Origin: Squalus acanthias
Lineage: Eukaryota
Length of the DNA: 64,000 nt
NCBI GenBank assembly: GCA_030390025.1
Contig: JASTWF010000288.1
Span: 248,001-312,000 of the forward strand
Direction of reading: 5' to 3'
Of this stretch, positions 7,984 through 51,424 are shown piece by piece. The position numbers were made by a program, and so were the translations under genes. Position 1 is the stretch's first letter. Each line of letters begins with the position of its first letter. Below the pieces are notes generated by a model. It made no database searches, had not been told where the DNA came from, and saw only the letters and a program-made list of their open reading frames with translations.

Positions 7984-7997
7984 CTGGAAAAAAAAGG

Positions 7998-8275
7998 TCC
8001 CCATTAACAATAAACAAACATGTCCCAATTAAAAATAACCAAACATGTACCCATTACCAATAACCAAACATGTCCCCATTACCAATTAACAAACATGTCC
8101 CCATTAATAAACAAACATGTCCCCATTACCAATAAAGAAACATGACCCCATTAATAAACAAACATGTCCCCATTACCAAGAAACATGTCCACATTACCAA
8201 TAAACAAACATGTCACCATTACCAATAAAAAAACATTTCACCATTTCCAATAAACAAACAGCTCATTAAAAATAA
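7998..8275. repeat. 25-bp minisatellite, short degenerate array in the intron between exons A and B
   Basis: Unit aataaacaaacatgtccccattacc. Confidence 0.95.
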
Positions 8276-8570
8276 ACACATTTTTCAGTGCAGACATTAA
8301 ACCTTTTATAGCAAGTGTGTTCAAAGTGCAGAGAGAGAAACAGCACACTGATGTGTTAAGGGTCAGTGCTCCAACATCACATCAGGCATTTCTGTGTCCC
8401 CATATAGTCGTAATTTTCATGGAAATAGGTTGGGATTGTTTGCTGCGCTTGTATATTGCAGGAATGTGAGAAACTAAAGTGTTCACAATTGTACCGACAG
8501 CTCCACACATTATATAGAAACAATTCTGAATACAGTAGAGTGCCTTGGCTGGGAAAATGAGGGAACATAC

Positions 8571-8894
8571 CTTATTCCTGGTATCAATGCATTTCATACT
8601 CCATCCATCTTTTCCAGTAACTGCCCGGCCATTATAAGAAAATGTACCAGGATACTCCGCAACAATTTCCCCAGCAACACGTTTCTTCATGCAGAGTCCC
8701 TGGTTAATCAAATTGCCTTCTACATTAAACGGACCAGACTCATCACTGCCGTACCCTTTGATAGAACCATCACAGTTAAAGAGCAGGATTGCTACAAATT
8801 CAGGGTTCTCACTTGACATTCCAACGTTGAGTACTAATGGTGAATCGATCGATTGCTCATCATACTGTCTCTTCCATATCCCGCACACCGGAAC
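8571..8894 (-). CDS. Predicted exon A (phase 0-0, 108 codons): first copy of an uncharacterised probable beta-barrel domain
   Basis: Acceptor ttttttaaatccag|GTT at 8894 and donor AAG|gtatgt at 8571. Open frame VPVCGIWKRQ...EFVAILLFNCDGSIKGYGSDESGPFNVEG...YPGTFSYNGRAVTGKDGW, splicing in frame to exon B. Confidence 0.75.
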
Positions 8895-8904
8895 CTGGAT
8901 TTAA

Positions 8905-14693: not shown

Positions 14694-14694
14694 A

Positions 14695-21690: not shown

Positions 21691-21766
21691 ATGGCTTCTC
21701 TGCTGACGGCGGGCACAGCGTGTTTCTTTTTTATCTTCCTGTGCTGTTTTCATGATGCATATTCTG
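21691..21766 (+). CDS. MHC class I-like heavy chain, exon 1 (signal peptide)
   Basis: MASLLTAGTACFFFIFLCCFHDAYS-G has a hydrophobic core and an A-x-S cleavage site. Phase-1 donor G|gtaaga matches the alpha1 acceptor. Confidence 0.8.
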
Positions 21767-22777: not shown

Positions 22778-23480
22778 AAGAACATAAGAACATAAGAAAT
22801 AGGAGCAGGAGTAGGCCAATCGGCCCCTCGAGCCTGCGCCGCCATTCAATAAGATCATGGCTGATCTGATCATAACCTCAAATCTAAAGAACACAAGAAG
22901 TAGGAGCAGGACCCAGCCACTCAGCCCCTGGGCCCGCTCCGGCACCCACAGGGCCTCGACCGATCCGAACTCAGCCTCATGTCCAATTTCTTGCCCGCTC
23001 CCCGTAACCCCTAATTCCCTTTACTTCTAGGAAACTGTCTATTTCTGTTTTAAATTTATTTTATGATGTAGCTTCCACAGCTTCCTGGGGCAGCAAATTC
23101 CACAGACCGACTACCCTCTGAGTGAAGAAGTTTCTCCTCATCTCAGTTTTGAAAGAGCAGCCCCTTATTCTAAGATTATGCCCCCTAGTTCTAGTTTCAC
23201 CCATCCTTGGGAACATCCTGACCGCATCCACCCGATCAAGCCCCTTCACAATCTTATATGTTTCAATAAGATCGCCTCTCATTCTTCTGAACTCCAATGA
23301 GTAGAGTCCCAATCTACTCAACCTCTCCTCGTATGTCCACCCCCTCATCCCCGGGATTAACCGAGTGAACCTTCTTTGTACTGCCTCGAGAGCAAGTATG
23401 TCTTTTCTTAAGTATGGACACCAAAACTGTATGCAGTACTCCAGATGCGGTCTCACCAATACCTTATATAACTGCAGCAC
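22778..23480 (-). mobile_element. CR1 3' fragment, well preserved
   Basis: [44 protein letters not shown], with a (taagaaca)n tail. Confidence 0.92.
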
Positions 23481-27373: not shown

Positions 27374-27634
27374 GTGGTCACTCCCTAAGTGTCCTACATA
27401 CAGAAATGGCGCAGTGCGCTGATTTCCCTGAGTTTCATGCGGTGGTGATGTTGGACGATACTGTGATCATGAACTATAACAGTGATACCAGCACTGTCCA
27501 TATTAAGCATGAATGGATCGCAAAACACTTAACTCCTGATCAGAAGGAGATTGACGATCTGTCCGCACGAGAGGCCCACAATATAATGAAAACAGGACTG
27601 AACAATACCATGAGACTGACCAAGAACACAGTCG
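27374..27634 (+). CDS. MHC class I-like heavy chain, exon 2 (alpha1 domain)
   Basis: cttccag|GT...G|gtgagt, 261 nt. GGHSLSVLHT...FPEFHAVVMLDDTVIMNYNSD...HEWI fits the alpha1 pattern HSLxxxxT/PEFxxVxxxDD/YxSD/W. Confidence 0.92.
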
Positions 27635-29599: not shown

Positions 29600-32500
29600 G
29601 AGCACTATTTCCCAGCTCCCTGTGCAGTGTCTCTGCACTGGTTCCTACCCCGGTGCACTGTATCTGCACTGGTTCCCGACCCCTGAGCACTTTTGCAGCA
29701 GTTTTTCCCAGCCCCTTTCACTCGGTCTCTTCACTGTTCCCCTATACATGTGCACGGTCTCTGTACTGGTTCCCAGCCTCCTGCGCACTGTCTCTGAACT
29801 AGTTCACTTCCCCAATGCACTGTCTCTGAACTGGTACCTTAACCCTGCGCACGCTCTCTGCACTGGTTCCCAGCCCCCTGTGCACACTGTCTCTGCACTG
29901 GTTCCCAGCCCCCTGTGCACACTGTCTCTGCACTGGTTCACAGCCCCCTGTGCACACTGTCTCTGCAGTGTTTCACAGCCCCCTGTGCACACTGTCTCTG
30001 CACTGGTTCACATCCCCCTGTGCACACTGTCTCTGCACTGGTTCACAGCCCCCTGTGCTCTGTCTCTGCACTAGTTCACAGCCCCCTGTACACACTGTCT
30101 CTGCACTGGTTCACAGCCCCCTGTGCACACTGTCTCTGAACTGGTTCCCAGCCCCCTGTGCACACTGTCTCTGCACTGGTTCCCAGCCCCCTGTGCACAC
30201 TGTCTCTGCACTGTTTCACAGCCCCCTGTGCAGACTGTCTCTGCACTGGTTCCCGGCGCACTGTGCACACTGTCTCTGCACTGGTTCCCGGCCCCCTGTG
30301 CACACTGTCTCTGCACTGGTTCCCGGCCCCCTGTGCACTGTCTCTGCACTGTTCGCCAGCCCCCTGTGCTCTGTCTCTGCACTGGTTCACAGCCCGCTGT
30401 GCACACTGTCTCTGCACTGGTTCCCGGCCCCCTGTGCACACTGTCTCTGCACTGGTTCCCGGCCCCCTGTGCACTGACTCTGCACTGGTTCACAGCCCCC
30501 TGTGCACACTGTCTCTGCACTGGTTCACAGCCTCCTGTGCACACCGTCTCTGCACTGTTTCACAGACCCCTGTGCACACTGTCTCTGCACTGGTTCCCAG
30601 CCCACTGTGCACACTGTCTCTGCACTGGTTCCCGGCCCCCTATGCACACTGTCTCTGCACTGGTTCACAGCCCCCTGTGCACACTGTCTCTGCACTGTTT
30701 CACAGGCCCCTGTGCACACTGTCTCTGCACTGGTTCCCAGCCCCCTGTGCTCTGTCTCTGCACTGGTTCCCAGCCCCCTGTGCACACCGTCTCTGCACTG
30801 GTTCACAGCCCCCTGTGCTCTGTCTCTGCACTGGTTCCCAGCCCCCTGTGCACACTGTCTCTGCACTGTTCGCCAGCCCCCTGTGCTCTGTCTCTGCACT
30901 GGTTCACAGCCCCCTGTGCACACTGTCTCTGCACTGGTTCACAGCCTCCTGTGCACACTGTCTCTGCACTGTTTCACAGACCCCTGTGCACACTGTCTCT
31001 GCACTGGTTCCCAGCCCACTGTGCACACTGTCTCTGCACTGGTTCCCGGCCCCCTATGCACACTGTCTCTGCACTGGTTCACGGCCCCCTGTGCACACTG
31101 TCTCTGCACTGGTTCACAGCCCCCTGTGCACACTGTCTCTGCAGTGTTTCACAGCCCCCTGTGCACACTGTCTCTGCACTGTTTCACAGGCCCCTGTGCA
31201 CACTGTCTCTGCACTGGTTCCCAGCCCCCTGTGCTCTGTCTCTGCACTGGTTCACAGCCCCTTGTGCACACTGTCTCTGCACTGGTTCACAGCCTCCTGT
31301 GCACACTGTCTCTGCACTGTTTCACAGACTCCTGTGCACACTGTCTCTGCACTGGTTCCCAGCCCACTGTGCACACTGTCTCTGCACTGGTTCCCGGCCC
31401 CCTATGCACACTGTCTCTGCACTGGTTCACAGCCCCCTGTGCACACTGTCTCTGCACTGGTTATCAGGCGCCTGTGCTCTGTCTCTGCACTGTTTCCAGC
31501 CCCCTGTGCACACTGTCTCTGCACTGGTTCCCAGCCCCCTGTGCACACTGTGTCTGCACTAGTTCACAGCCCCCTGTGCACACTGTCTCTGCAGTGTTTC
31601 ACAGCCCCCTGTGCACACTGTCTCTGCACTGGTTCCCGGCCCCCTGTGCACACTGTCTCTGCAGTGTTTCACAGCCCCCTGTGCACACTGTCTCTGCACT
31701 GGTTCCCAGCCCCCTGTGCACACTGTCTCTGCACTGGTTCCCAGCCCCCTGTGCACACTGTCTTGGCACTGGTTCCCAGCCCCCTGTGCACACTGTCTCT
31801 GCACTGGTTCACAGCCCCCTGTGCACACTGTCTTTGCACTGGTTCCCAGCCCCCTGTGCACACTGTCTCTGCACTGGTTCACAGCCCCCTGTGCACACTG
31901 TCTCTGCACTGTTTCCAGACCCCCCTGTGCACACTGTCTCTGCACTGGTTCCCAGTCCCCTGTGCACACTGTCTCTGCACTGTTTCCCAGCCCCCTGTGC
32001 ACACTGTCTCTGCACTGGTTCCCGGCCCCCTGTGCACACTGTCTCTGCAGTGTTTCACAGCCCTCTGTGCACACTGTCTCTGCACTGTTTCCAGACCCCC
32101 CTGTGCACACTGTCTCTACACTGGTTCCCAGTCCCCTGTGCACACTGTCTCTGCACTGTTTCCCGGCCCCCTGTGCACACTGTCTCTGCACTGGTTCCCA
32201 GCCCCCTGTGCTCTGTCTCTGCACTGGTTCCCAGCCCCCTGTGCACACTGTCTCTGCACTGGTTCCCGGCCCCCTGTGCACTGACTCTGCACTGGTTCAC
32301 AGCCCCCTGTGCACACCGTCTCTGCACTGGTTCACAGCCCCCTGTGCTCTGTCTCTGCACTGGTTCCCAGCCCCCTGTGCACACTGTCTCTGCACTGTTC
32401 GCCAGCCCCCTGTGCTCTGTCTCTGCACTGGTTCACAGCCCCCTGTGCACACTGTCTCTGCACTGGTTCACAGCCTCCTGTGCACACTGTCTCTGCACTG

Positions 32501-34208
32501 TTTCACAGACCCCTGTGCACACTGTCTCTGCACTGTTTCACAGGCCCCTGTGCACACTGTCTCTGCACTGGTTCCCAGCCCCCTGTGCTCTGTCTCTGCA
32601 CTGGTTCCCAGCCCCCTGTGCACACCGTCTCTGCACTGGTTCACAGCCCCCTGTGCTCTGTCTCTGCACTGGTTCCCAGCCCCCTGAGCACACTGTCTCT
32701 GCACTGGTTCCCAGCCCCCTGTGCACACTGTCTCTGCACTGGTTCCCAGCCCCCTGTGCACACTGTCTCTGCACTGGTTCCCAGCCCCCTGTGCACACTG
32801 TCTCTGCACTGTTCGCCAGCCCCCTGTGCTCTGTCTCTGCACTGGTTCACAGCCCCTTGTGCACACTGTCTCTGCACTGGTTCACAGACTCCTGTGCACA
32901 CTGTCTCTGCACTGGTTCCCAGCCCACTGTGCACACTGTCTCTGCACTGGTTCCCGGCCCCCTATGCACACTGTCTCTGCACTGGTTCACAGCCCCCTGT
33001 GCACACTGTCTCTGCACTGGTTATCAGGCGCCTGTGCTCTGTCTCTGCACTGTTTCCAGCCCCCTGTGCACACTGTCTCTGCACTGGTTCCCAGCCCCCT
33101 GTGCACACTGTGTCTGCACTAGTTCACAGCCCCCTGTGCACACTGTCTCTGCACTGGTTCCCAGCCCCCAGTGCACACTGTCTCTGCACTGGTTCACAGC
33201 CCCCTGTGCACACTGTCTCTGCACTGGTTCACAGCCCCCTGTGCACACTGTCTCTGCACTGGTTCCCAGCCCCCAGTGCACACTGTCTCTGCACTGGTTC
33301 ACAGCCCCCTGTGCACACTGTCTCTGCAGTGTTTCACAGCCCCCTGTGCACACTGTCTCTGCACTGGTTCCCGGCCCCCTGTGCACACTGTCTCTGCACT
33401 GTTTCACAGCCCCCTGTGCACACTGTCTCTGCACTGGTTCCCAGCCCCCTGTGCACACTGTCTCTGCACTGGTTCCCAGCCCCCTGTGCACACTGTCTTT
33501 GCACTGGTTCCCAGCCCCCTGTGCACACTGTCTCTGCACTGGTTCACAGCCCCCTGTGCACACTGTCTTTGCACTGGTTCCCAGCCCCCTGTGCACACTG
33601 TCTCTGCACTGTTTCCAGACCCCCCTGTGCACACTGTCTCTGCACTGTTTCCCAGTCCCCTGTGCACACTGTCTCTGCACTGTTTCCCAGCCCTCTGTGC
33701 ACACTGTCTCTGCACTGGTTCCCGGCCCCCTGTGCACACTGTCTCTGCAGTGTTTCACAGCCCTCTGTGCACACTGTCTCTGCACTGTTTCCAGACCCCC
33801 CTGTGCACACTGTCTCTGCACTGGTTCCCAGTCCCCTGTGCACACTGTCTCTGCACTGTTTCCCGGCCCCCTGTGCACACTGTCTCTGCACTGGTTCCCA
33901 GCCCCCTGTGCACACTGTCTCAGCATTGGTTGACAGCCCCCTGTGCACACTGTCTCAGCATTGGTTCACAGCCCCCTGTGCACACTGTCTCTGCACTGGT
34001 TCACAGCCCCCTGTGCACACTGTCTCTGCATTGGTTCCCGGCCCCCTGTGCACACTGTCTCTGCACTGGTTCACAGCCCCCTGTGCACATTGTCTCAGCA
34101 CTGGTTCCCAGCCCCCTGTGCACACTGTTTCTGCACTGGTTCCCAGCCCCCTGTGCACACTGTCTCTGCACTGGTTCCCAGCCCCCTGTGCACACTGTCT
34201 CTGCACTG
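29600..34208. repeat. 35-bp satellite array in MHC intron 2
   Basis: (gcacactgtctctgcactggttcccagccccctgt)n with 33-bp variants and a degenerate left edge. Confidence 0.97.
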
Positions 34209-34415
34209 GAGAACACCAAGGACCCCAGGCGACAGTAGGCCTCAGGCCTCCAGCTTAATTTCCTTTGGTGGGGCACCCAAGGATCCTTCATGCCCACTAT
34301 CGTATTCTCAGGCCCAATAGTCTGAATCTGGCCTAACCGATAATCTCTACAGGTGCAACATTAATTCTTCATTGCGAGTTTGGTGATTCTTTTCCGAATG
34401 TTCATTCTCTTTCAG

Positions 34416-34690
34416 GCCCCCACCTATTTCAGTGGATGAAGAAGGTCGAGGTAAATGATGATGGCCTTGTGAATTGGGACGTACTCTTCCGGTTCGATGG
34501 CAAGGATTTCATTCGACTGGACCAGCACACCATGAACTGGGTCGTGGTGAGCCCTGAAGCAAAGAGCTTCGAGAGACAGTTTACCAAAGAGCCAGACTGG
34601 CGAAACACCTGGAGGGAAACTCTAAACACACCGTGGTCGTTGGATTGAACGATCTGCTTCAGAAAGGCAAACAGTTTGTGGAAAGAAAGA
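34416..34690 (+). CDS. MHC class I-like heavy chain, exon 3 (alpha2 domain), frameshifted near 34625-34632
   Basis: ctctttcag|GC CCC CAC...AAG A|gtacgt. PHLFQWM..VEV.DDG...FDGKDFIRLDQHTMNWV; after restoring 1 nt it reads TVVVGLNDLLQKGKQFVERK. Length is 275 nt, one short of 276. Confidence 0.88.
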
Positions 34691-34699
34691 GTACGTTTG

Positions 34700-35305
34700 G
34701 TTATAGGAACAAGAGGAGGCCATTCAGCCCATCGAGCTAGCTCCACCATTCAATTATATCACGGCTGATCTGTATCTTAACTCTATCTACCCAACTTGGT
34801 TCCGTAACCCTCGGTACCCTTGACTAACTAAAATCTATCAATTTCAGTTTTGACATTTTCAATTGACCCCCCCAGCCTCAACAGCTTTTTGGGAGAGTTC
34901 CAGATTTCCACTACCCTTTGTGTGAAGAAGTGCTTCCTGACATCACACCTGAACGGCCTGGCTCTAATTTTAAGGTTCTGTCCCCTTGCTGTGGACTCCC
35001 CCCACCAGAGGAAATAGTTTCTCTCTATCTACCCTATCAACTCCTTCAATCATCTTACACACCTCAATTAAATCACCCTTTAATCTTCTATATTCAAGGG
35101 AATAGAAGCCTTGTCTCTGCAACCTGCTCTCATAATTGAGCCCTTTCAGTGTCATTCTGGTGAATGTGCTGCACCCACTCCAAGGCCAATATATCCTTCC
35201 TGAGATGCGGGGCCCAGAACTGAATGCAGTTCTCCAGGTGGGGTCTAACCAGAGCTCTGTTCACCTCCAACATCTCTTCCACCCTCCAGCCCTCTTGAGA
35301 TAATT
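34700..35305 (-). mobile_element. CR1 3' fragment
   Basis: YSLEYRRLKGDLIEVCKMIEGVDRVDREKLFP. Confidence 0.85.
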
Positions 35306-35319
35306 CTGTTCGATCGGAT

Positions 35320-37462
35320 CATTTGTGGATACGGATTTGGCTAAGGGACAGAAAGCAGAGAGTAGTGGTGAACGTATGTTTATCAGACTGGGGGGAATTA
35401 TACAGTGGTGAGCCCCAGAAGTCGGTATTGTGACCACTTCTCTTTTTGATATTTAATAATGACTTGGATTTTGATATACAGGGCATCATTTCAAAGATTA
35501 CTACTTTTCCGAGTTTCATGTCAATTGCAAAGAGTGAGGAGGTTAGTAACAAACCTCAGGAGCACTGAGACAGAGTGATCAAATAGGCAGACACATGGCA
35601 GATGATGCTTACTGCTTACTGCTGAGGAGGATGCCGAGAAACTCCAGGATGATTTGGACAGATTAGGTGATTGGGCAGAAGCATGGCAGATGCAATATAA
35701 TGTGGATAAATGCGAGGTTATCCACTTTGGTGTCAAAAACAGGAAGGCAGATTATTATCTGAATGGCAATAGATTGGGAGAAGGGGAAGTGCAACGAGAC
35801 CTGGGTGTACTTGTGCACCAGTCGCTGAAGGTAAGCATGCAGGTGCAGCAGGCGGTTAAGAAGGTAAATGGTATGTTGGCCTTCGTAGCGAGAGGGTTTG
35901 AGTACAGGAACAAGGATGTCTTGCTGCAGTTGTACAGGGGCTTGGTGAGACCACACCTTGAGGATTGTGTGCAGTTTTGGTCATCTTATCTGAGGAAGGA
36001 GGTTCTTGCCATGGAAGGAGTTCAGCGAAGATTCACCAGGCTGATACCTGGGATGGCAGGAATGACGTATGAGGAGAGATTGGGTCGATTGGGCTTATAC
36101 TCGCTGGAGTTTAGAAGAATGAGAGGGGATCTCATTGAAACTTATAAAATTCTGACAGGACTGGACAGACTAGATGCAGGAAGGATGTTCCCGATGGTCG
36201 GGGAGTCCAGAACCAGGGGTCACAGTCTAAGGATAAGGGGTAAGCCATTTAGGACAGAAATGAGGAGGAATTTCTTCACCCAGAGGGTGGTGAACCTGTG
36301 GAATTCTCTACCACAGAAGGCAGTAGAGGCCAATTCATTTAATATATTCAAGAAGGAGAAGGATATATTTCTTAAGGCTAAAGGGATCAAGGGTTTTGGG
36401 AAGAAAGCAGGGAAAGGGTTCTGAATTTGGATGATCAGCCATGATCGCATTAAATGGCGGAGCAGGCTAGAGGGGCCGAATGGCCTACTCCTGCTCCTAT
36501 CTTCTATGTTTCTATGACAAGTATGAAGTGATGCATTTTGGAAGGAAGAAGGGGGAGAGGTAATTTAAACTAAATGGTGTAATTTTAAAAGAGGTGCATG
36601 TATACGTACTTAAGTCTTTGAAGGGAACAGCACAAGTTGAGAAGGCTGATTAAAAAAAAAGCATACGGGATGCTTGGCTTTATTGATTGAGGCATTGGGC
36701 TCGATTTTGTCATGGGGCGGGCTGGGGTCGTGTCATCCGCTTTTCGTGTTAGCCACCTGACTGCAATTGGATGTGGGAGATTGATGCGATTTTCTCCTAA
36801 TTGGGCAATTGAGTTCCAGCATGTGGGAACCCATGAACCAATTAGTGTTTTCAGTCTGAAAGTCACCTCTGATGATGTCATCAATGCTGCTGCATTGAAG
36901 GTCTTCAAAGACTGGCAGCCTTTTGGCCTTTGCTGTGAGAGGGAGTTGGAGGTAGAATGAGCAGCAGCAGACATCCGTCCGACCGTCAGTCACTTCTCCT
37001 TCTCCTTCTTGCTGATAGTCAGCAATCCAAGGTTTCACCGTCGTGTTTCAGAGGAGGCGTGCATCACGTCGGAAAAGTCATAAAATCAGAAAGGCCTCTC
37101 AAAATAGGATTATAGAGGCAATTAAGTGGTTCTTAAGGGCCTATCCCGCCTCTTGGAGACGGGATCAGAAACCACGCATTTGGGAAAATTGCTCGGAGGC
37201 AGGGTCGGGCACGCTCGCCATTTTTTGCAATTTTAACACGCCTCCTCGGGCCTGGCAAAATCGAGCCCATAGAGTACAAAAGCAAGGAAATAATGCTAAA
37301 TCTTCCTAAATCACTGGTTACTCCTCACCTGGAGTGTTGTGTTCAATTCTGGGTGCCACATTTTAGGAAGGATGTCAAGGCCTTGCAGGGATGAGCGACT
37401 TCAGTCATGTTGAGAGACGATAGAAGCTGGGGTTGTGCTCTTTAGAGTAGGGAAGGTTAAGA
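35320..37462 (+). mobile_element. Older CR1 containing a nested younger CR1 (~35615-36515) and a MITE; resumes at ~39820-40415
   Basis: 256-aa ORF 35654-36424 (WAEAWQMQYNVDKCEVIHFG...LVRPHLE...RRMRGDLIETYKIL). The flanking older copy rejoins across it. Confidence 0.88.
36697..37268. mobile_element. Harbinger-like MITE (572 bp)
   Basis: Perfect 13-bp TIRs GGGCTCGATTTTG / CAAAATCGAGCCC with 3-bp flanks ATT/ATA. It interrupts the CR1 sequence gaggc-ata-gagtacaaaagc. Confidence 0.8.
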
Positions 37463-39820
37463 GCCTCAGCTTCATTCCCGTACGCCCTCCACTTCAGTGA
37501 ATTTCGAGCTCGGCATGATGCTGAGCTCTTCTTCCATCACCTTCGTCTCCCTGTCCACTTATTTGATCAGGAGTCTTCCCCCCGCACAGCGGACCCATCT
37601 TCAGAATTCTCGTTCTACCTGGACCCCACCCTCTGGCCTCTTACCCTCTCTGGATCTTTTCATTGCTAACTGCCGACGTGACATCAGCCGTCTCAATTTC
37701 TCTGCTCCCCTCACTCACTCCAACCTACCTCCCTCTGAACTTGCAGCACTCCGTTCTCTCAGATTCAACCCCGACATTGTCATTAAACCTGCTGACACGG
37801 GTGGCGCTGTTGTTGTTTGGTGAACCGACCTCTACCGTGCGGAGGCTGAACGCCAACTCTCCGACACCGCCTCCTACCTTCCCCTGGACCATGACCCCAC
37901 TAACGAACATCAAGCCACTGTTTCCAAAACTGTCACTGACCTCATCTCCTCTGGAGATCTTCCCCCCACGGCCGCCAACCTCATAGTCCCCCAACCCCGC
38001 ACAGCCCGCTTCTCCCTCCTTCCCAAGATCCACAAACAGGACTGCCCTGGTAGACCCATCGTTTCAGCCTGTTCTTGCCTCACGGAACTGATTTCTTCCT
38101 ATCTCGACTCTTTTTTCTCCCCTTGTCCAGTCCCGTCCCACTTACATCCGTGACTCTTCCGACACCCTCCGCCACTTTAACAGTTTCCAGTTTCCTCACC
38201 CTTACCGTCTCCTTTTCATAATGATTGTCCAATCCCTCTACACCTCCATTCCCCACCAGGATGGCCTGAGGGCGCTCCGCTTCTTCATTGAACAGAGGCC
38301 CAACCAGTCCCCATCCAACGCCATCCTCCTCCGCCTGGCTGAACTTGTTCTCACATTGAACAACTTCTCCTTAGACTCCACTCACTTCATCCAAATTAAA
38401 GGTGTTGCTATGGGAACCCGCACGCGTCCTAGCTATGCCTGCCTTTTCGTGGGATATGTGGAACATTCTTTATTCCAGTCCTACTCAGGTCCCCTCCCTC
38501 ACCTCTTTTTCCGGTACATTGACGACTGTATCAGTGTCGTTTCCTTCTCTCGCCCTGAATTAGAAAATTTCATCCACTTTGCTTCCAATTTCCACCCTTC
38601 CCTCACCTTCAAATGGTCCATCTCCGACTCTTCCCTTCCCTTCCTCGACTTCTCCGTCTCCATCTCTGGGGATAGGTTATTGACTAACATTCACTACAAG
38701 CCCACTGACTCCCACAGCTACCTGGACTACACTTCCTCCCACCCCGCCTCCTGTAAGGACTCTATTCCAATCTCCCCGTTTCTTCATCTCTGTCACGTCT
38801 GTTATGACGATGCCACCTTCCATACCAGTGCTTCCGATATGTTTTCCTTTTTTCTCACCCGAGGATTCTCCTCTACTGTGGTTGACACAGCCCTTGACCA
38901 TCTCTGTTCCAGTTCCCGCACTTCTGCCCTCACCCCTGCCCCTCCCTCCCGGAACCACGATAGAGTTCCCCTTGTCCTCACCTTTCACCCCACCAGCCTC
39001 CACATTTAGCAGATCATCCTCGACCATTTCCGCCACCTCCAGCGTGATCCCACCACCAAACGCATCTTCCCCTCACCTCCCCTTTTCAGCATTCCGTAGG
39101 GACCGCTCGCTCCGCGACACCCTAGTCCACTCCTCTACCACCCCCAGCACCCGTTCCCCTTCACCCGGCACCTTCCCGTGCAAGCACAGGAGATGCAACA
39201 CCTGCCCTTTTACCTCCCCCCTTCCCACTGTCCAGGGCCCCAAACACCCCTTTGAGGTGAAACAGCGATTTACTTGTAGTTCTTGCAGTTTAGTATACTG
39301 TATTCGCTGCTCACGATGTGGTCTCCTCTGCATTGGGGAGACCAAACGCAGATTGGGTGACTGCTTTGCGGAACACCTCCGTTCAGTCCGTAAGGGTGAC
39401 CCCGAGCTTCCAGTCGCTTGTCATTTTAATTCACTGCTCCATGCGCACTCAGACCTCACTGTCCTCGCCCTCTTGCATTGTTCCAACGAAGCTCAGCGTA
39501 AGCTCCAGGAACAGCACCTCATCTTCCGATGATGCACCTTCTGCTTCTTATTCTTCTTACAGCCCCCCGGACTCAACATTCAGTTCAACAATTGATCATA
39601 TCCATTGTTTAGTGCAGCAGCCGTTGGTAACTATTCTGCCATTGCCATTTACACCTCCTCCAGACCCACCTTTTGTTTCTTTACGTCTCCCATTACCATC
39701 TCCTATTGCCTTGCACCATCATCCCTTTCGTCATTTAAGCACTCCTGGCCTGCTGAGTATTACCAGCATTTTCTGTTTTTATTTCAGATTTTCAGCATCT
39801 GCAGTATTTTGCTTTTGTAT
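37463..39820 (+). mobile_element. Penelope-like retroelement (RT plus GIY-YIG endonuclease), degenerate
   Basis: SLYTSIPHQDG...LVLTLNNFS...GVAMGTR..PSYACLFVG...FRYIDD...LPFLD...YKPTDSHSYLDYTSSHP; VYCIRCSRCGLLCIGETKRRLGDCFAEHL. Confidence 0.93.
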
Positions 39821-40464: not shown

Positions 40465-43400
40465 AATGCTCTCTCTCTCTCCTTCTCCCTGTCCCCATAT
40501 CTATTTGTATCTCTTGCTGTCTCTCCCTCTTTCTGTCTCTCTCTCACACCTCCTATACCTCTGTCTCTTGTTCTCTGTCTTGTATCGCTGTTTTCCTCTT
40601 TGACTGTTTCTCTCTAAATGTGCCTTTGTCTGTCGCCTTTATGTTCCTCTCACCTCCCTCCATCCCTTACCATCTCTCCAACTCTCCTTCGCTGTTTCTC
40701 TCTCACCTTCTGTCTCTGGTTTTCCCTCACTTTGTTACTATCTCCCCTTATATCCAACATGTCTTTCTCTCTCTCACCTTCCTGCCCCTCTTTCTCTAAC
40801 TTTGCCCCCTTTGTCTTATTTCCATCACTCCCTGTATCTATCTCTTTTTCTTTCACCCTATCTCTTGTGCTCTCCAACTCTTATTTGTTCCCTTCGCTTT
40901 CTCTCTCCATCTCTGTTTTTCTCTCCCCCTTTTACTCTCTTTCCTTCACCTTCATATTTCTCTCTCGGTTGCTGTTCCACTCTGTTCCGCTCCTCGTCTC
41001 TCCTTCTGGTTATTTCACTTGCTCTCTGTTCCTTTCCCCGTCTCACTGTTCTTTTCACTCTTACCCTCTCGTTCACTGCTCCTTGCTGTCTGTCCCTCTC
41101 TGTTCCTCTCTTTCTCTTCCCCTCTGACTGACTCTCTATTTCCCTTTCTCTCTGCTCCTCTGTTCTCCTCTCACACTGTTACACACTTTATTCTGTTCCT
41201 CTTCCCCTGTTTTTCTCTCTTTTTCTCTAATTCTGTTACTATTACTGTCTCTCACTTTCTCTATCTGTTGCTCATGGTTTCTGCCCCTCTCTCCCTGTCT
41301 GTCACACTTACTGACCCTCTACCTCTTGGTCCCACGATTTCTGTTTTTTTCAAAACTCTATCCCCATTCCTGTGCCTGTCCCTGTCACTCTCTGTCCCTA
41401 TTCTTGTCCCTGTCACTCTCTGTCCCTGTTCTTGTCCCTGTCACTCTCTGTCCCTGTTCTTGTCCCTGTCACTCTCTGCCCCTGTTCTTGTCCCTGTCAC
41501 TCTCTGCCCCTGTTCTTGTCCCTGTCACTCTCTGTCCCTGTTCGTGTCCCTGTCACTCTCTGCCCATGTTCCTTTCCCTCTCTCTCTCTCTACCTGTCCC
41601 TCTCTGTGTTATTGTCATGACCCTCTCTCACTGTCTACCTGTCCCTCTCTCTGACTCACTCTCTGTTCCTGTCATGTCTCTCTCACTCTCCCACTCTCTA
41701 CCTGTCGCACTCTCTGTCCCTGTCCCTCTCTCTCTGTACCTGTCACTCTCTCTCTCTCTCTCTCACTCTTTGTCCCTGTTTCTCTCTCTGTGACCGTCAC
41801 TCTCTCTGTATCTGTCACTCTCCCCGTACCTGTTACACTCTCTGTACTGGTCACTGTCTCTGTCTCACTCGCTGTTCCTGTTCCTGTCCCTCTCTCTCAC
41901 GCTAATTCTCTCTCTCTCTCTCTCTACCTGTCTAACTCTCTGTCTCAATCTCTACCTCACATTCTGTCTCACTCTGTCTCACTCTCTATCTCACTCTCTG
42001 TCTCTCTCTCTCTCTGCACCTGTCCCTCTCTGTGTCACGCTCTGTCCCTGTCAACCCCCCTCTCTGCACCGGTCACTCTCTCTGTCCCTGTCCCTCTCTC
42101 TCTTTCTGCACTTGTCACTCTCACTCTCTCTCTCACTCTCTGTCCCTGTTCTTGTCCCTGTCTCTGTCCCTGTCACTCTCTGTCTCTGTTCCTGTCCCTG
42201 TCACTCTCTGTTCCTGTTCTTGATGTCACTCTCTGTTCCTGTTCTTGTCCCTGTCACTCTCTGTTCCTGTTCCTGTTCTTGTCCCTGTCACTCTCTGTCC
42301 CTGTTCTTGTCCCTGTCACTCTCTGTCTCTGTTCTTGTCCCTGTCACTCTCTGTCCCTGTACTTGTCCCTGTCACTCTCTGTCTCTATACTTGTCCCTGT
42401 CACTCTCTGTCTCTGTTCCTGTCACTCTCTGTTCCTGTTCTTGTCCCTGTCACTCTCTGTCTCTGTTCCTGTCACTCTCTGTTCCTGTTCTTGTCCTGGT
42501 CACTCTCTGTTCCTGTTCCTGTCCCCGTCACTCTCTGTCCCTGTACTTGTCCCTGTCACTCTCTGTCCCTGTACTTGTCCCTGTCACTCTCTGTCCCTGT
42601 TCTTGTCCCTGTCACTCTCTGTCCCTGTTCCTGTCCCTGGCTCTCTCTGTCTTTGTTCCTGTCCCTGTTACTCTCTGTTCTTGTCCCTGTCACTCTCTGT
42701 CCCTGTTCCTGTCCCTGTCACTCTGTTCCTGTTCCTGTCCCTGTCCCTGTCACTCTGTCTCTGTTCCTGTCCCTGTCACTCTCTGTTCCTATTCTTGTCC
42801 CGGTCACTCTCTGTTCCTGTTCTTGTCACTCTCTGTTCCTGTTCTTGTCACTCTCTGTTCCTGTTCTTGTCACTCTCTGTTCCTGTTCTTGTCCCTGTCA
42901 CTCTCTGTCCCTGTCCTGTCCCTGTCACTCTCCGTTACTGTTCCTGTGCTTGTCCCTGTCACTTTCTGTCTTTGTACTTGTTCCCGTCACTCTCTGTTCC
43001 TGTTACTCTCTGTTCCTGTTCTTGTCACTCTCTGTCTCTGTCCCTGTTCCTGTCCCTGTCACTCTGTTCCTGTTCCTGTTCTTGTCCCTTCACTCTCTGT
43101 CTTTGTACTTGTTCCTGTCACTCTCTGTTCCTGTTCTTGTCCCTGTCACTCTCTGTTCCTGTTCTTGTCCCTGTCACTCTCTGTCCCTGTTCCTGTCCCT
43201 GTCAGTCTCTGTCTCTGTTCCTGTCCCTGTCACTCTCTGTTCCTGTCCCTGTCACTCTCTGTTCCTGTTCTTGTCCCTGTCACTCTCTGTTCCTGTTCTT
43301 GTCCCTGTCACTCTCTGTCCTGTTCTTGTCCCTGTCACTCTCTGTCCCTGTTCTTGTCCCTGTCACTCTCTGTCCCGGTTCCTGTCCCTGTCACTCTCTG

Positions 43401-44840
43401 TTCCTGTTCTTGTCCCCGTCACTCTCTGTTCCTGTTCTTGTCCCCGTCACTCTCTGTTCCTGTTCTTGTCCCCGTCACTCTCTGTTCCTGTTCTTGTCCC
43501 CGTCACTCTCTGTCCCTGTTCCTGTCCCCGTCACTCTCTGTCCCTGTTCCTGTCCCTGTCACTCTCTGTCCCTGTCGCTGTTCCTGTCCCTGTCACTCTC
43601 TGTTCCTGTTCTTGTCCCTTTCACTCTCTGTCCCTGTTCCTGTCCCTTTCACTCTCTGTCCCTGTTCCTGTCCCTGTCACTCTCTGTTCCTGTTCCTGTC
43701 CCTGTCACTCTCTGTTCCTGTTCCTGTCCCTGTCACTCTCTGTTCCTGTTCTTGTCCCTGTCACTCTCTGTTCCTGTTCTTGTTCCTGTCACTCTGTCCC
43801 TGTTCCTGTCCCTGTCACTCTCTCTTCCTGTTCTTGTCCCTGTCACTCTCTCTTCCTGGTCCTGTCCCTGTCACTCTCTGTTCCTGTTCTTGTCCCTGTC
43901 ACTCTTTGTTCCTGTTCTTGTCCCTGTCACTCTTTGTTCCTGTTCTTGTCCCTGTCACTCTCTGTCCCTGTTCCTGTCCCTGTCACTCTCTGTTCCTGTT
44001 CTTGTCCCTGTCACTCTCTGTCCCTGTTCATGTCCCTGTCACTCTCTGTCCCTGTTCCTGTCCCTGTCACTCTCTGTCCCTGTTCCTGTCCCTGTCACTC
44101 TCTGTCCCTGTTCCTGTCCCTGTCACTCTCTGTCCCTGTTCCTGTCACTCTCTGTTCCTGTTCCTGTTCCTGTCACTCTCTGTTCCTGTTCCTGTCACTC
44201 TCTGTTCCTGTTCCTGTTCTTGTCCCTGTCACTCTCTGTCTCTGTTCCTGTTCTTGTCCCTGTCACTCTCTGTTCCTGTTCTTGTCCCTGTCACTCTCTG
44301 TTCCTGTTCTTGTCCCTGTCACTCTCTGTTCCTGTTCTTGTCCCTGTCACTCTGTCCCTGTCACTCTCTGTCTCTGTTCCTGTCACTCTCTGTTCCTGTT
44401 CTTGTCCCTGTCACTCTCTGTCTCTGTTCCTGTTCTTATCCCTGTCACTCTCTGTCCCTGTACTTGTCCCTGTCACTCTCTGTCCCTGTACTTGTCCCTG
44501 TCACTCTCTGTCCCTGTACTTGTCCCTGTCACTCTCTGTCCCTGTACTTGTCCCTGTCACTCTCTGTCTCTGTTCCTGTTCCTGTCCCTGTCACTCTCTG
44601 TCTCTGTTCCTGTCACTCTCTGTTCCGGTTCCTGTTCCTGTCACTCTCTGTTCCTGTCACTCTCTGTTCCTGTTCTTGTCCCTGTCACTCTCTGCCCATG
44701 TTCCTTTCCCTCTCTCTCACTGTCTACCTGTCCCTCTCTCTGAATCACTCTCTGTTCCGGTCATGTCTCTCTCACTCTCCCACTCTCTACCTGTCGCACT
44801 CTCTGTCCCTGTCCCTGTCCCTCTCTCTCTGTACCTGTCA

Positions 44841-44878
<38 letters not shown>

Positions 44879-47800
44879 TTGTCCCTGTTTCTCTCTCTGT
44901 GCCTGTCACTCTCTCTGTATCTGTCACTCTCCCCGTACCTGTTACACTCTCTGTACTGGTCACTCTCTCTGTCTCACTTGCTGTTCCTGTTCCTGTCCCT
45001 CTCTCTCACGCTAATTCTCTCTCTCTGTCTCTCTCTCTCTACCTGTCTAACTCTCTGTCTCAATCTCTATCTCACTCTTCTGTCTCTCTCTCTCGGTACC
45101 TTTCACTCTCTCGGTACCTGTCACTCTCTGTCTCTCTCTGCACCTGTCCCTCTCTCTGTGTCACGCTCTGTCCCTGTCAACCCCCCTCTCTGCACCTGTC
45201 ACTCTCTCTGTCTTGCTCTCTCTTCCTATCCCTCTCTCTCTCTCTCTCACTCTCACTCCCTGTCCCTCACTCTCTATCCCTGTCGCTCTCTGTTCCTGTC
45301 CCTCTCTCTCTCTCTCTGTACCTATCCCTCTCTCTCTCTCTCTGTACCTGTCACTCTCTCTGTCTCACTCTCTGTCCCTGTCCCTCACTCTCTGTTCCTG
45401 TCCCTCTCTCTCTCTCTGTACCCGTCACTCTCACTGTCTCACTCCCTGTTCCTGACCCTCACTCTCTGTCCCGGTCACTCTCACTGTCTCACTCTCTGTT
45501 CCTGACCCTCTCTCTCTGTACCTGTCACTCTCACTGTCTCACTCTCTGTACCTGTCACTCTCTCTGTCTCACTCTCTGTCCCTGTCCTTCTCTCTCTGCA
45601 CCTGTCACTCCCTGTCTCGTTCTCTGTTCCTGTCCTTCTATCTCTCTCTCTCTCTCTACCTGGCACTCTCTCTGTCTCACTCTCTGTCCCTGTCCCTCAC
45701 TCTCTGTTCCTGTCCCTCACTCACTCTCTGTACCTGTCACTCTCACTGTCTCACTCTCTGTTCCTGTCCCTCTCTCTCTCTCTGTACCCGTCACTCTCAC
45801 TGTCTCACTCCCTGTTCCTGACCCTCACTCTCTGTCCCTGTCACTCTCACTGTCTCACTCTCTGTTCCTGTCCCTCTCTCTCTCTCTCTCTACCTGGCAC
45901 TCTCTCTGTCTCACTCTCTGTCCCTGTCCCTCTCTCTCTACCTGTCACTCTCACTCTCTGTCCCTGTCCCTCTCTCTCTACCTGTCACTCTCACTCTCTG
46001 TACCTGTCCTTCTCTCTCTCTGCACCTGTCACTCTCTCTGTCTCACTCTGTCCCTGTCCCCCTCTCTCTCTCTTCCTGTCACTCATTCTGTACCTGTCCC
46101 TCTCTCGCTCTGTACTTGTTACTCTCTCTGTCTCACTCTCTCTGTACCTGTCACTCTCTGTCTTGCTCTCTGTTCCTGTCCCTCTCTATCTCTCTGTACC
46201 TGTCACTGCCTCTCTCTCTGCACCTGTCACTCTCGCTCTCATTTCTATCCCTGTCCCTCACTCTCTGTACCTTTCACTCTCCATCCCACTCTCCTTTAAT
46301 GTCACTCTCTGTCTTGCTATCTGTCCGTCACTCTCTCTCTCTTCCTGTCACACTCTCTGTCTCACTCTCTGTCCCTCTCTCTCTCTCTCTGTACCTGTCA
46401 CTCTCTCTGTCTCACTCTCTGTCCCTCGCTCTCTCTGTACCTGTCACTCTCTGTCTCACTCTCTGTCCCTGTCTCTCTCTCTCTGTACCTGTCACTCTCT
46501 CTGTCTCACTCTCTGTACCTGTCACTCTCTCTGTCTCACTCTCTGTCCCTGTCCTTCTCTCTCTGCACCTGTCACTCCCTGTCTCGTTCTCTGTTCCTGT
46601 CCTTCTATCTCTACCGGTGATTCTCTCTGTCTCACTCTCTCTCTCTGTCCCTCACTCTCTGTTCCTGTCACTCTCTGTCTCGCTCTCTGTTCCTGTCCCT
46701 CTCTATCTCTCTGTACCTGTCACTCCCTCTCTCTCTGCACCTGTCACTCTCTCTCTCTCTCTCGTTCTCTGCCCCATCCCTCACTCTCTGCACCTATCAC
46801 TCTCCGTCCCACTCTCTGTCCCTTTCACTCTCTGTCTCGCTCTCTGTTCCTGTCACTCTACACCTGTCCCTCCCTCTGTCTCACTCTTTGTCCCTGTCAC
46901 TCTCTGTCTCACTCAATGTCCCTGTCCCTCTCTACACCTGTCACTCTCTCTCTCTCTCTCTCACTCTCTGTCCCTGACCCCGTCCCCCTCTCTTTCTTTC
47001 TCTCTCTACCTGTAATTCTCTTTCTCTCACTCTGTCCCTGTCTCTCTCTTCCTGTCACTCTTTCTGTACCTGTCCCTCTCTCTCTCTGTCCCTGTCACTC
47101 TCTCTGTCTCACTCTCTGTCCCTCTCTCTCTCTGTACCTGTCACACTCTGTCCCTCTCTCTCTCTCTCTCTGTCCCTGTCACTCTGTCCCTGTCACACTC
47201 TGTCTCACTCTCTGTCCCTCTCTCTCTCTCTCTCTGTACCTGTCACACTCTCTGTCCCACTCTCTGTCCCTCTCTCTCTCTCTTCCTGTCACTCTGTCTC
47301 ACTCTCTCTCTCTGTCCCTGTCACACTCTCTGTCTCTCTCTCTCTACCTGTCACTCTCTCTGTCTCACTCTCTGTCCCTGTCCATCTCTCTCTCTCTCTG
47401 TCCCTGTCTATCTCTCTGTACTTGTCACACTCTTCCTTTCTCTCTGTACCTATTACTCCCTCTCTCTCTGCACCTGTCACTCTCTCTCTCTCGTTCTCTG
47501 CCCCTATCCCTCACTCTCTGTCCCTGTTTCTCTCTCTTCCTGTCACTCTTTCTGTACCTGTCCCTCTCTCTCTCTCTCTGTATCTGTCACTCTCTCTGTC
47601 TCACTCTTTGTTCCTGTCCCCCTCTCTCTTTCTCTGTGCCTGTCTCTCTCCCTCTCTCTCTGTACTTGTCGCTCTCTCTGTGCCTGTCATTCTCTCTCTC
47701 TCTCTACCTGTCACTCTCTCTGTCTCACTCTCTGTCCCTCTCTGTACCTGTCACTCTCTCTGTCTCACTCTCTGTCCCTGTCCTTCTCTCTCTGCACCTG

Positions 47801-49240
47801 TCACTCTCTGTCTCGTTCTCTGTTCCTGTCCTTCTATCTCTACCGGTGATTCTCTCTGTCTCACTCTCTCTCTCTGTCCCTCACTCTCTGTTCCTGTCAC
47901 TCTCTGTCTCGCTCTCTGTTCCTGTCCCTCTCTATCTCTCTGTACCTGTCACTCCCTCTCTCTCTGCACCTGTCACTCTCTCTCTCTCTCTCTCGTTCTC
48001 TGCCCCGTCCCTCACTCTCTGCACCTATCACTCTCCGTCCCACTCTCTGTCCCTTTCACTCTCTGTCTCGCTCTCTGTTCCTGTCACTCTACACCTGTCC
48101 CTCCCTCTGTCTCACTCTTTGTCCCTGTCCCTCTCTCTGCACCTGTCACTCTCTCTCTCACTCTCTGTCCCTGACCCCGTCCCCCTCTCTCTTTCTTTCT
48201 CTCTCTACCTGTAATTCTCTTTCTCTCACTCTGTCCCTGTCTCTCTCTTCCTGTCACTCTTTCTGTACCTGTCCCTCTCTCTCTCTGTCCCTGTCACTCT
48301 CTCTGTCTCACTCTCTGTCCCTCTCTCTCTCTGTACCTGTCACACTCTCTGTCCCTCTCTCTCTCTCTCTCTCTCTGTCCCTGTCACTCTGTCCCTGTCA
48401 CACTCTGTCCCACTCTCTGTCCCTCTCTCTCTCTCTCTCTCTGTACCTGTCACACTCTCTGTCTCACACTGTCTCTCTCTCTCTCTCTCTCTTCCTGTCA
48501 CTCTGTCTCACTCTCTGTCCCTCTCTCTCTCTCTCTCTGTCCCTGTCACACTCTCTGTCTCTCTCTCTCTACCTGTCACTCTCTCTGTCTCACTCTCTGT
48601 CCCTGTCCATCTCTCTCTCTCTCTGTCCCTGTCTATCTCTCTGTACTTGTCACACTCTTCCTTTCTCTCTGTACCTATTACTCCCTCTCTCTCTGCACCT
48701 GTCACTCTCTCTCTCTCGTTCTCTGCCCCTATCCCTCACTCTCTGTCCCTGTCTCTCTCTCTTCCTGTCACTCTTTCTGTACCTGTCCCTCTCTCTCTCT
48801 GTATCTGTCACTCTCTCTGTCTCACTCTTTGTTCCTGTCCCCCTCTCTCTTTCTCTGTGCCTGTCTCTCTCCCTCTCTCTCTGTACTTGTCGCTCTCTCT
48901 GTGCCTGTCATTCTCTCTCTCTCTCCCTGTCACTCTCTCTGTCTCACTCTCTGTCCCTGTCCTTCTCTCTCTGTGTACCTGTCACTTTCTTTCTCTCTCT
49001 CTCTACCTGTCACTCTCTCTGTCTCACTCTCTGTCCCTGTCCTCCTCTCTGTGTACCTGTCACTCTCTCTGTCTCACTCTCTGTACCTGGCAATCTCTCT
49101 GTCTCACTCTCTGTCCCTGTCTCTCTCTGTACCTGTCACTCTCTGTCTCCCTCTATTTTCCTGTCCCTGCCCCTTTCTCTCTCTCTCCTTCTCCCTCTCC
49201 CACTCTTTCCGTTCCTCCCACTCTCTATTCCTCCCTCTAT
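40465..49240. repeat. Pyrimidine-rich low-complexity/minisatellite tract (tgtccctgtcactctc, (ct)n) filling the 3' part of MHC intron 3
   Basis: Directly visible, ~8.8 kb, with internal block duplications. Confidence 0.97.
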
Positions 49241-49244
49241 AAAG

Positions 49245-49514
49245 GTCGCCCTGTAGTGTACGTCTTTAAGCGTCCCTTGGATAGCTCAGTTGCCGTCTCC
49301 TGCCTTGTGACTGGTTTCTACCCTCGGTTTATTGAGGTGGTTTGGCAGAGAAATGAAGATTTTGTCTCGGATGTGGAATCGCCTGGCCTATTGCCGAACC
49401 ATGACGGAACCTATCAGACAAAGAAAACTCTAATACTCGCAGCTGAGGATGAAGCTGAGTATTTGTGTCATGTCACCCACAGCAGCCTGTCAGAGACACA
49501 GACTGAGCCTTGGG
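49245..49514 (+). CDS. MHC class I-like heavy chain, exon 4 (alpha3, Ig C1-set)
   Basis: ctctataaag|GT...G|gtaagt, 270 nt. RPVVYVF...VSCLVTGFYPRFIEVVWQRN...LLPNHDGTYQ...YLCHVTHSSL...W. Confidence 0.96.
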
Positions 49515-50200: not shown

Positions 50201-50563
50201 AAGAGCTCTTGCTGGGAGGTGCACAGGTGGAGTATGTGTCGAGGTCACAGGGCTAGGAGGTGCTCTGGAAGTCGGCTTGGTGAGTTGCTGCACTGTATCC
50301 TGATAGTGACAGTACACACTGCAGCCACGGTGCTCCGGTGGTGGAGTAAGTGGGTCCTGAGTCCAGTGTCACAAGCTTAACACCTTCATCCCTCCTCCCC
50401 GCTGACCAATATTCTACCCACTTGTTGACCCAGTCACATCACTGATAAAACAACAGACGGCGATGTGTACAACGCTGGCAGAGCATGGTCCTATTGCCAT
50501 CAGAAACAGTAAATGTCAGGTTTGGAGCTGGACAGTCACACATGAAATGTTTTATATTTCAAG

Positions 50564-50671
50564 TGCCTGAAAGGAGTCCCAGAGATCGAGGAGTGGCGAT
50601 CGCAGGAGGAATACTAGGGATTGTCATAGTAATATGTGTCACTGTCGGAATCTGGACCAGGAAGAAGACAG
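50564..50671 (+). CDS. MHC class I-like heavy chain, exon 5 (connecting peptide, transmembrane segment and basic stop-transfer)
   Basis: tatatttcaag|TG...G|gtgagg, 108 nt. VPERSPRDRGVAIAGGILGIVIVICVTVGIWTRKKT. Confidence 0.88.
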
Positions 50672-50924: not shown

Positions 50925-51424
50925 NNNNNNNNNNNNNNNNNNNNNNNNNNNNNNNNNNNNNNNNNNNNNNNNNNNNNNNNNNNNNNNNNNNNNNNNNNNN
51001 NNNNNNNNNNNNNNNNNNNNNNNNNNNNNNNNNNNNNNNNNNNNNNNNNNNNNNNNNNNNNNNNNNNNNNNNNNNNNNNNNNNNNNNNNNNNNNNNNNNN
51101 NNNNNNNNNNNNNNNNNNNNNNNNNNNNNNNNNNNNNNNNNNNNNNNNNNNNNNNNNNNNNNNNNNNNNNNNNNNNNNNNNNNNNNNNNNNNNNNNNNNN
51201 NNNNNNNNNNNNNNNNNNNNNNNNNNNNNNNNNNNNNNNNNNNNNNNNNNNNNNNNNNNNNNNNNNNNNNNNNNNNNNNNNNNNNNNNNNNNNNNNNNNN
51301 NNNNNNNNNNNNNNNNNNNNNNNNNNNNNNNNNNNNNNNNNNNNNNNNNNNNNNNNNNNNNNNNNNNNNNNNNNNNNNNNNNNNNNNNNNNNNNNNNNNN
51401 NNNNNNNNNNNNNNNNNNNNNNNN
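50925..51424. other. Assembly gap (500 N)
   Basis: Run of exactly 500 N, which suggests a nominal scaffold gap size. Confidence 0.99.

What the first reader, a model, noticed from the sequence alone, without database searches (positions are those of the whole stretch)
34416..34690. alpha2 domain has lost both cysteines of the near-invariant C101-C164 disulfide (both to Val)
Seen: QWMKKVEV sits where class I has QxMYGCE/D, and (frame-corrected) LNTTVVVGLNDLL sits where class I has LExxCIEWLxKYL. The exon has no Cys at all. Established: this disulfide is conserved in almost all class I molecules. Inference: paired replacement by the same hydrophobic residue looks like a lineage-level structural change rather than random pseudogene decay. 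It implies an altered or flexible groove and may mark an undescribed or poorly described shark class I sublineage. One unpaired Cys occurs in alpha1 (MAQCAD).
Basis: partly seen in the sequence, partly recalled or inferred. Interest (0 to 1): 0.75.

Follow-up and report, generated by a model that had tools for sequence, protein, structure and literature searches.

The report
Broken dogfish UCA class I copy
This is a frameshifted, likely dead copy of a known dogfish-shark immune gene (non-classical MHC class I, UCA); the missing disulfide is real, but the intact published UCA protein and related shark proteins lack it too, so it marks no new lineage.

Summary
In this alpha2 exon, valine sits at both the C101 and C164 positions (34445-34447, 34633-34635). 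66 of 71 aligned class I proteins keep both cysteines.

It is not an undescribed lineage. The gene is 90-92% identical per domain to Squalus acanthias AAN78091. A published supplement labels that protein UCA, and it already shows Val/Val in the authors' own alignment.

Horn shark, catshark, bamboo shark and nurse shark proteins, probably UEA, also lack both cysteines. They share V101 but carry L, G or S at 164. Val/Val is therefore only UCA's version of a wider loss, possibly a single old one.

This copy has a 1-bp deletion near 34620-34626 and a stop at 34646-34648. The deletion is in DNA contigs of two samples, so it is not an assembly error. Spliced contigs from three runs carry only the intact AAN78091-type exon.

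Verdict: a pseudogenised second UCA copy (or null allele) of a described lineage. Intact UCA likely packs V101 against V164 in an ordinary class I fold and likely carries a hydrophobic non-peptide ligand; both steps are untested. Low interest.

The parts
21691..21766 (+). leader exon (ATG, signal peptide)
   Evidence: matches the AAN78091 leader apart from a 3-residue insertion; donor GTAAGA
27374..27634 (+). alpha1 exon, open
   Evidence: 80 of 87 identical to AAN78091; Pfam MHC_I E 1.7e-4, below curated cutoff
27415..27417 (+). unpaired Cys in the alpha1 beta1-beta2 loop (about HLA position 15)
   Evidence: same Cys in AAN78091; position; not the commonest residue elsewhere
34416..34690 (+). 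alpha2 exon, 275 nt (intact type 276), frameshifted
   Evidence: 82 of 91 identical to AAN78091 with X at the break; Pfam MHC_I E 1.8e-8; splice sites
34445..34447 (+). Val at the C101 position (GTC)
34620..34626 (+). 1-bp deletion relative to the intact type
   Evidence: spliced contigs X8, X9, X12 have one extra base at 34623/34624; DNA contigs of X1 and X5 have no gap against the window
34633..34635 (+). Val at the C164 position (GTG), downstream of the frameshift
34646..34648 (+). premature TGA; spliced as it stands the product ends after 189 aa
49245..49514 (+). alpha3 (C1-set) exon, both Ig Cys kept, 2-codon in-frame deletion versus AAN78091
   Evidence: 84 of 91 identical; Pfam C1-set E 1.6e-15; 46 of 47 inner residues match S. 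acanthias fragment AAB30802
50564..50671 (+). connecting peptide / transmembrane exon; cytoplasmic exons not found (assembly gap 50925-51424 follows)
   Evidence: 74% over 39 aa to AAN78091; hydrophobic scan and N run

Best explanation
This gene is a frameshifted, likely non-functional second copy of the dogfish UCA non-classical MHC class I gene, and its Val/Val pair is shared with the intact UCA protein. Shown: lineage identity, Val/Val in the intact protein, a 1-bp deletion in DNA of two samples, a stop after 189 aa before alpha3 and the membrane anchor, and spliced contigs of only the intact type. Inferred for this copy: the transcript would be degraded by nonsense-mediated decay or give a truncated chain, so it makes no surface molecule. 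Inferred for intact UCA: it keeps the class I fold and would pair with beta2-microglobulin. V101 and V164 would pack against each other where the disulfide normally ties the alpha2 helix to the sheet. With the peptide-end anchors replaced and a hydrophobic groove, it likely carries a lipid-like or other hydrophobic non-peptide ligand rather than classical peptides. The loss of the bond likely happened once, in an ancestor shared with the UEA-like genes of galeomorph sharks, after which residue 164 drifted.
For: Best hit AAN78091, 88% on the alpha2 piece, the only hit among 3 candidates. Per-domain identity 80/87, 82/91, 84/91 and a WINDOW+AAN78091 clade at 100/100. The supplement row 'Sacanthias_UCA_AF515705' matches P0001 by eye in all three domains and has V/V. 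Deletion in DNA: an X1 contig spans 34260-34711 with 0 gaps, and both 60-base X5 contigs across 34595-34654 have 0 gaps. 3 of 3 RNA-guess runs laid (X8, X9, X12) give spliced contigs whose loose ends match alpha1 and alpha3, with 13 other letters plus one inserted base and no change at either Val codon. Two copies: the S. acanthias fragment AAB30802 differs from the window at 1 of 47 inner residues but from AAN78091 at 4. Organism B has window-type DNA (X7) and intact-type RNA (X12). Anchors replaced: Y7V, Y59Q, Y84L, T143L, K146Q, W147F, Y159N, W167G, Y171L. Groove hydropathy ranks 4th of 71 (0.98 vs 0.02 +/- 0.54; position set recalled). Model pLDDT 87.4, class I fold at Z about 28, rmsd 2.0-2.9 A. 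UCA and UEA-like rows join at 94/83 in the groove tree.
Against: The intact-type exon was not seen in the DNA runs laid, so paralogue versus allele is not settled. No genome was held to count copies. A single origin of the loss is weak: support falls to 69/51 with the two trait columns removed and 28 rows, the alpha3 tree does not join UCA with the UEA-like rows, and the UCA stem is long (1.95). The UEA-like rows are not hydrophobic on my position set (ranks 27, 28, 44, 52 of 71), so disulfide loss does not by itself imply a hydrophobic groove. The model was built from an alignment of mostly Cys-bearing proteins. No ligand or beta2-microglobulin test was run.
Confidence: 0.7

Rival explanations
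1. The window gene is a divergent null allele of the single UCA locus, not a second locus; some dogfish would then carry no working UCA.
For: In run X1 (about 97% read) only a window-type contig covers the exon at 82% likeness. X5 shows two window-type variants, both frameshifted.
Against: Divergence is spread over all exons, including alpha3 (92%) and the TM exon (74%). Both types occur in both organisms A and B. The runs were ranked by likeness to the window, and the tool warns that holes in contigs prove nothing.
Confidence: 0.2
2. The frameshift is an assembly error and the window gene is an intact UCA copy.
For: The break lies in short A-runs. The other exons are open with canonical splice sites. 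The window has C at 34570 where X1, X5 and the RNA contigs have A, so a single-base assembly error in this exon is possible.
Against: Contigs from two samples in two studies match the window with no gap across the break. No window-type spliced contig appeared in 3 of 3 RNA-guess runs laid.
Confidence: 0.03
3. One reading: Val/Val marks an undescribed shark class I sublineage.
For: The pair is very rare among class I proteins. I found no held paper that describes the loss in words.
Against: The sequence nests with a named lineage reference that has the same pair. The key lineage papers were not held and may well state it.
Confidence: 0.03
4. On function only: intact UCA has a closed or empty groove and acts as a ligand-free surface molecule (MIC- or FcRn-like, recalled) rather than carrying a lipid, possibly dimerising through the free alpha1 Cys.
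For: All anchors are replaced and bulky residues W97, W152, W156 and F116 face the groove on the recalled position set. The free Cys is kept in both copies. PMC4364491 (passages) raises dimer formation for extra alpha1 Cys in teleost lineages.
Against: The small residues G167 and G77 and the hydrophobic lining would suit a cavity. The model matches peptide- and metabolite-binding class I equally well. Groove volume was not measured.
Confidence: 0.3

Closest known systems
Squalus acanthias UCA (AAN78091.1 / Q8HWI9; 'Sacanthias_UCA_AF515705' in PMC10751288 Supplemental File 10; original name Sqac-UAA*NC1, Wang et al. 2003, recalled)
   Same: 90-92% identity in alpha1, alpha2 and alpha3; same V101/V164, same free alpha1 Cys, same loss of peptide anchors
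   Different: 1-bp deletion and premature stop in alpha2; 2-codon deletion in alpha3; 3 extra leader residues; TM exon only 74% identical
S. acanthias 'putative MHC' fragment AAB30802.1 (63 aa)
   Same: 46 of 47 inner alpha3 residues match the window, so this copy type was probably already sampled
   Different: alpha3 fragment only; says nothing about alpha2 or the frameshift
Shark UEA-like class Ib proteins (XP_067865876 Heterodontus, XP_038672211 Scyliorhinus canicula, XP_043540249 Chiloscyllium plagiosum; 'Gcirratum_UCA_NODE_26056' in the supplement). The UEA label is my inference from likeness and recall of Almeida et al. 2021, of which I saw only the citation.
   Same: both alpha2 Cys missing; V at 101, mostly in a QW-x-x-x-V-E-V/I motif
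   Different: only 29-35% identical to UCA; residue 164 is L, G or S; K146 and W147 kept; no Cys at the alpha1 loop position; less hydrophobic groove
Shark UFA/UGA CD1-like class Ib (PMC12562908, passages)
   Same: non-classical shark class I; reported there to bind lipids, the kind of ligand inferred for UCA
   Different: all 5 UFA/UGA rows in the supplement keep both alpha2 Cys; different lineages

Membership tests
MHC class I heavy chain | leader-alpha1-alpha2-alpha3(C1-set)-TM exon layout | tested here: met
MHC class I heavy chain | class I fold (intact relative) | tested here: met
   predicted model pLDDT 87.4; Z 27-29, rmsd 2.0-2.9 A over about 267 residues
MHC class I heavy chain | pairs with beta2-microglobulin | not tested
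   Q96 kept; no complex modelled and no shark beta2m sequence in session
Classical class Ia (shark UAA) | conserved peptide-end anchor residues | tested here: not met
   Y7, Y59, Y84, T143, K146, W147, Y159, W167, Y171 all replaced
Classical class Ia (shark UAA) | C101-C164 disulfide | tested here: not met
Shark UCA lineage | clusters with the S. acanthias UCA reference in per-domain trees | tested here: met
   groove tree 100/100; alpha3 tree 100; label from the supplement
Shark UCA lineage | restricted to dogfish sharks (recalled from Almeida et al. 2021) | tested here: inconclusive
   the only hits above 50% identity were S. acanthias records; no squaliform genomes could be searched
Shark UCA lineage | lies in the MHC class Ib region | not testable with these tools
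   no genome held; no other class I gene or MHC marker gene found in the window
Shark UEA lineage | nests among UEA sequences | tested here: not met
   sister to, not inside, the UEA-like pair in the groove tree; separate in alpha3; only 2 UEA-like rows in the trees and the label is inferred
Shark UFA/UGA, UDA, UBA | both alpha2 Cys kept, and sequence likeness to the lineage references | tested here: not met
   all their rows in the supplement keep both Cys and differ widely from the window by eye
W-category MHC | two ectodomains per chain (recalled) | tested here: not met
   three ectodomain exons
Pseudogene / null copy | genuine frame-breaking lesion in the genome | tested here: met
Pseudogene / null copy | no functional transcript | tested here: inconclusive
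   3 RNA-guess runs show only the intact type, but contigs show presence, not absence

The most novel reading that the evidence does not exclude
UCA and UEA form one old clade of disulfide-free class I molecules that lost the C101-C164 bond once, before squaliform and galeomorph sharks split. UCA became a hydrophobic-ligand carrier that folds outside the usual disulfide-dependent chaperone route. Dogfish populations segregate a UCA-null haplotype. That would give a natural test of how a class I groove stays folded without its staple.
Probability: 0.25. Interest if true: 0.45.

Novelty: new member of a known kind. Interest (0 to 1): 0.2.

Why it matters
In HLA-A2, mutating C101-C164 abolishes binding to the chaperone TAPBPR, probably by destabilising alpha2 (PMC6926029, passages). 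Natural class I molecules that do without the bond are therefore useful for folding and ligand studies. The right subject is the intact UCA protein, which is already in GenBank, or the UEA-like genes, not this broken copy. The small additions here are three: UCA has at least two sequence types, one type carries a real frameshift in two sampled animals, and V101 links UCA to the galeomorph disulfide-free genes.

Tried and rejected
No whole genome was held, so paralogues and synteny could not be checked. tblastn of the intact protein found no second class I gene in the window.

The two J Immunol lineage papers (PMC7002201, PMC8454915) were not held. Whether the disulfide loss is stated there, in their supplements or in Wang et al. 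2003 is unknown to me. Searches found no paper; searches listed none that I found to describe the loss (I opened six papers, by passage, section or supplement). PMC6523485, PMC6769792 and PMC11835228 (passages) gave nothing on it.

A groove-only homolog search returned only AAN78091. Pairwise BLAST scoring of the Cys columns was noisy: 158 of 193 alignments C/C and 8 neither, of which only P0034 and P0004 looked correctly aligned. I relied on the MAFFT alignment instead (71 of 173+ proteins, chosen as single-gene-length). Trees used 57, 34 and 28 rows.

No RNA holder was listed on record; X8, X9 and X12 are guessed RNA, though their contigs are spliced. The intact-type exon was not seen in DNA runs X1, X5, X6 and X7, which is a hole and not evidence. 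X6 and X7 do not cover the break. 7 of 23 listed runs were laid.

The fold search does not separate peptide-, metabolite- and lipid-binding class I. No complex with beta2-microglobulin was run. Earlier-findings look-ups by place and by sequence were empty.

Rejected: random decay as the cause of Val/Val, assembly error, W-category, new lineage.

Full report
Observation. The stretch 34416-34690 is the alpha2 exon of a class I gene on the + strand, with canonical splice sites. The rest of the gene is a leader at 21691-21766, alpha1 at 27374-27634, alpha3 at 49245-49514 and a TM exon at 50564-50671, followed by an assembly gap. Val codons sit at 34445 and 34633. Alignment of the intact relative to HLA-C places them on C101 and C164. 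In a 71-protein alignment 66 rows have both Cys.

Identity. The alpha2 piece found one protein, Squalus acanthias non-classical class I AAN78091/Q8HWI9, at 88%. Domain identities are 80/87, 82/91 and 84/91, and the two form a clade at 100/100. Supplemental File 10 of PMC10751288 (parts 97 and 98 read) lists this protein as 'Sacanthias_UCA_AF515705'. In the authors' alpha2 alignment it has Val in both Cys columns. By eye, 23 of the 26 rows keep both Cys. The three that lack both are this UCA, a nurse shark row labelled UCA (V/L) and a ray row labelled UHA. So Val/Val has been in the public record since that sequence was deposited (2003 paper, recalled). I could not read the lineage papers, so I cannot say whether it was remarked on in words.

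State of this copy. The exon is one base short. Spliced as it stands, the product stops at TGA 34646-34648 after 189 residues, before alpha3 and the anchor. A 529-base contig of run X1 crosses the break with no gap. Both short contigs of X5, another sample and study, do the same. The lesion is therefore genomic. Contigs from X8, X9 (organism A) and X12 (organism B) cover exactly the exon and run on into alpha1 and alpha3 sequence, so they are spliced. They have 13 other letters and one extra base that restores the frame, and these differences give the AAN78091 residues. Neither Val codon differs. Of 12 substitutions classed one at a time, 4 are silent and 8 change the residue.

Second locus or allele. 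An older S. acanthias alpha3 fragment (AAB30802) matches the window at 46 of 47 inner residues but AAN78091 at 43. Organism B has window-type DNA (X7) and intact-type RNA. Two UCA types therefore exist in both organisms. I read the window type as a dead paralogue. A null allele is not excluded, because the intact type was not seen in the DNA runs laid. The species is likely S. acanthias or a close Squalus (inference from these matches).

How far the loss extends. The other four rows lacking both Cys in the alignment are galeomorph shark proteins: Heterodontus (V/L), two Scyliorhinus isoforms of one gene (V/G) and Chiloscyllium (V/S). Their alpha3 resembles the nurse shark row of the supplement, and I take them to be UEA. 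That label is inference; earlier notes in this scan said the same. All have V101. The Val codons here are two (GTC) and three (GTG) base changes from a Cys codon, which fits an old loss. The groove tree joins UCA with these proteins at 94/83, but only 69/51 with the trait columns removed and fewer rows, and alpha3 does not join them. A single origin is plausible but not shown.

How the intact molecule likely works. AlphaFold2 gives a confident class I fold (pLDDT 87.4, 88-98 per ten-residue block across alpha2). It matches chicken, duck, shark and MR1 structures at Z 27-29 and rmsd 2.0-2.9 A, without ranking them. The model leans on Cys-bearing homologues and says nothing about flexibility. 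All nine peptide-end positions examined are replaced. Mean hydropathy of 37 groove positions (set recalled) ranks 4th of 71, about 1.8 SD above the other rows. I infer that V101 and V164 pack in place of the bond and that the groove carries a hydrophobic non-peptide ligand. A closed, ligand-free groove is the main rival. The UEA-like rows are not hydrophobic on this measure, so the two traits are separable. The free alpha1 Cys lies in a loop near HLA position 15 and could link dimers; this is untested. In HLA-A2, loss of the bond abolishes TAPBPR binding (PMC6926029, passages), so UCA would need another route to stability.

Comparison and verdict. The gene is a member of UCA by tree and identity. 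It is not classical, not W-type and not UBA, UDA, UFA or UGA, and it is at most sister to UEA. PMC10751288 (section 9 and passages) calls the functions of these lineages unknown, and PMC12562908 (passages) reports lipid binding for UFA and UGA. The finding is a real but already visible trait of a named lineage, seen here in a broken copy. Novelty: new member of a known kind. Interest 0.2.

Noticed in passing
window 7997-14694 and 51425-64000: The gene lies between two arrays of the same 25-bp satellite in opposite orientation (about 238 and 504 copies).
   Followed up: partly
window 29753-34209 and 41369-49186: Large tandem arrays fill the introns: a 35-bp unit (128 copies) before alpha2 and CT-rich 28-50-bp units before alpha3. 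Such arrays could favour copy-number change of the gene.
   Followed up: no
window 34700-34860: A very high-copy interspersed repeat begins about 10 bases after the alpha2 donor site (summed contig depth above one million in X1).
   Followed up: no
window 34570: The window has C where X1, X5 and all three spliced contigs have A: a rare allele or a single-base assembly error.
   Followed up: partly
window 49241-49244 and 50560-50563: The alpha3 and TM exons use AAG acceptors rather than the commoner CAG/TAG.
   Followed up: no
window 35606-36424, 37461-39532, 23061-23480: Decayed retrotransposon-like reading frames (LINE-like by recall); the two tested gave no Pfam match at E 0.01.
   Followed up: partly
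PMC10751288 Supplemental File 10, row Pamandae_UHA: A ray class I-like row labelled UHA also has no Cys in alpha2, apparently unrelated in sequence, so perhaps a separate loss.
   Followed up: no
protein P0027 (Acipenser sinensis record): Some bony-fish class I hits appear to keep C101 but lack C164; alignments and gene models not checked.
   Followed up: no
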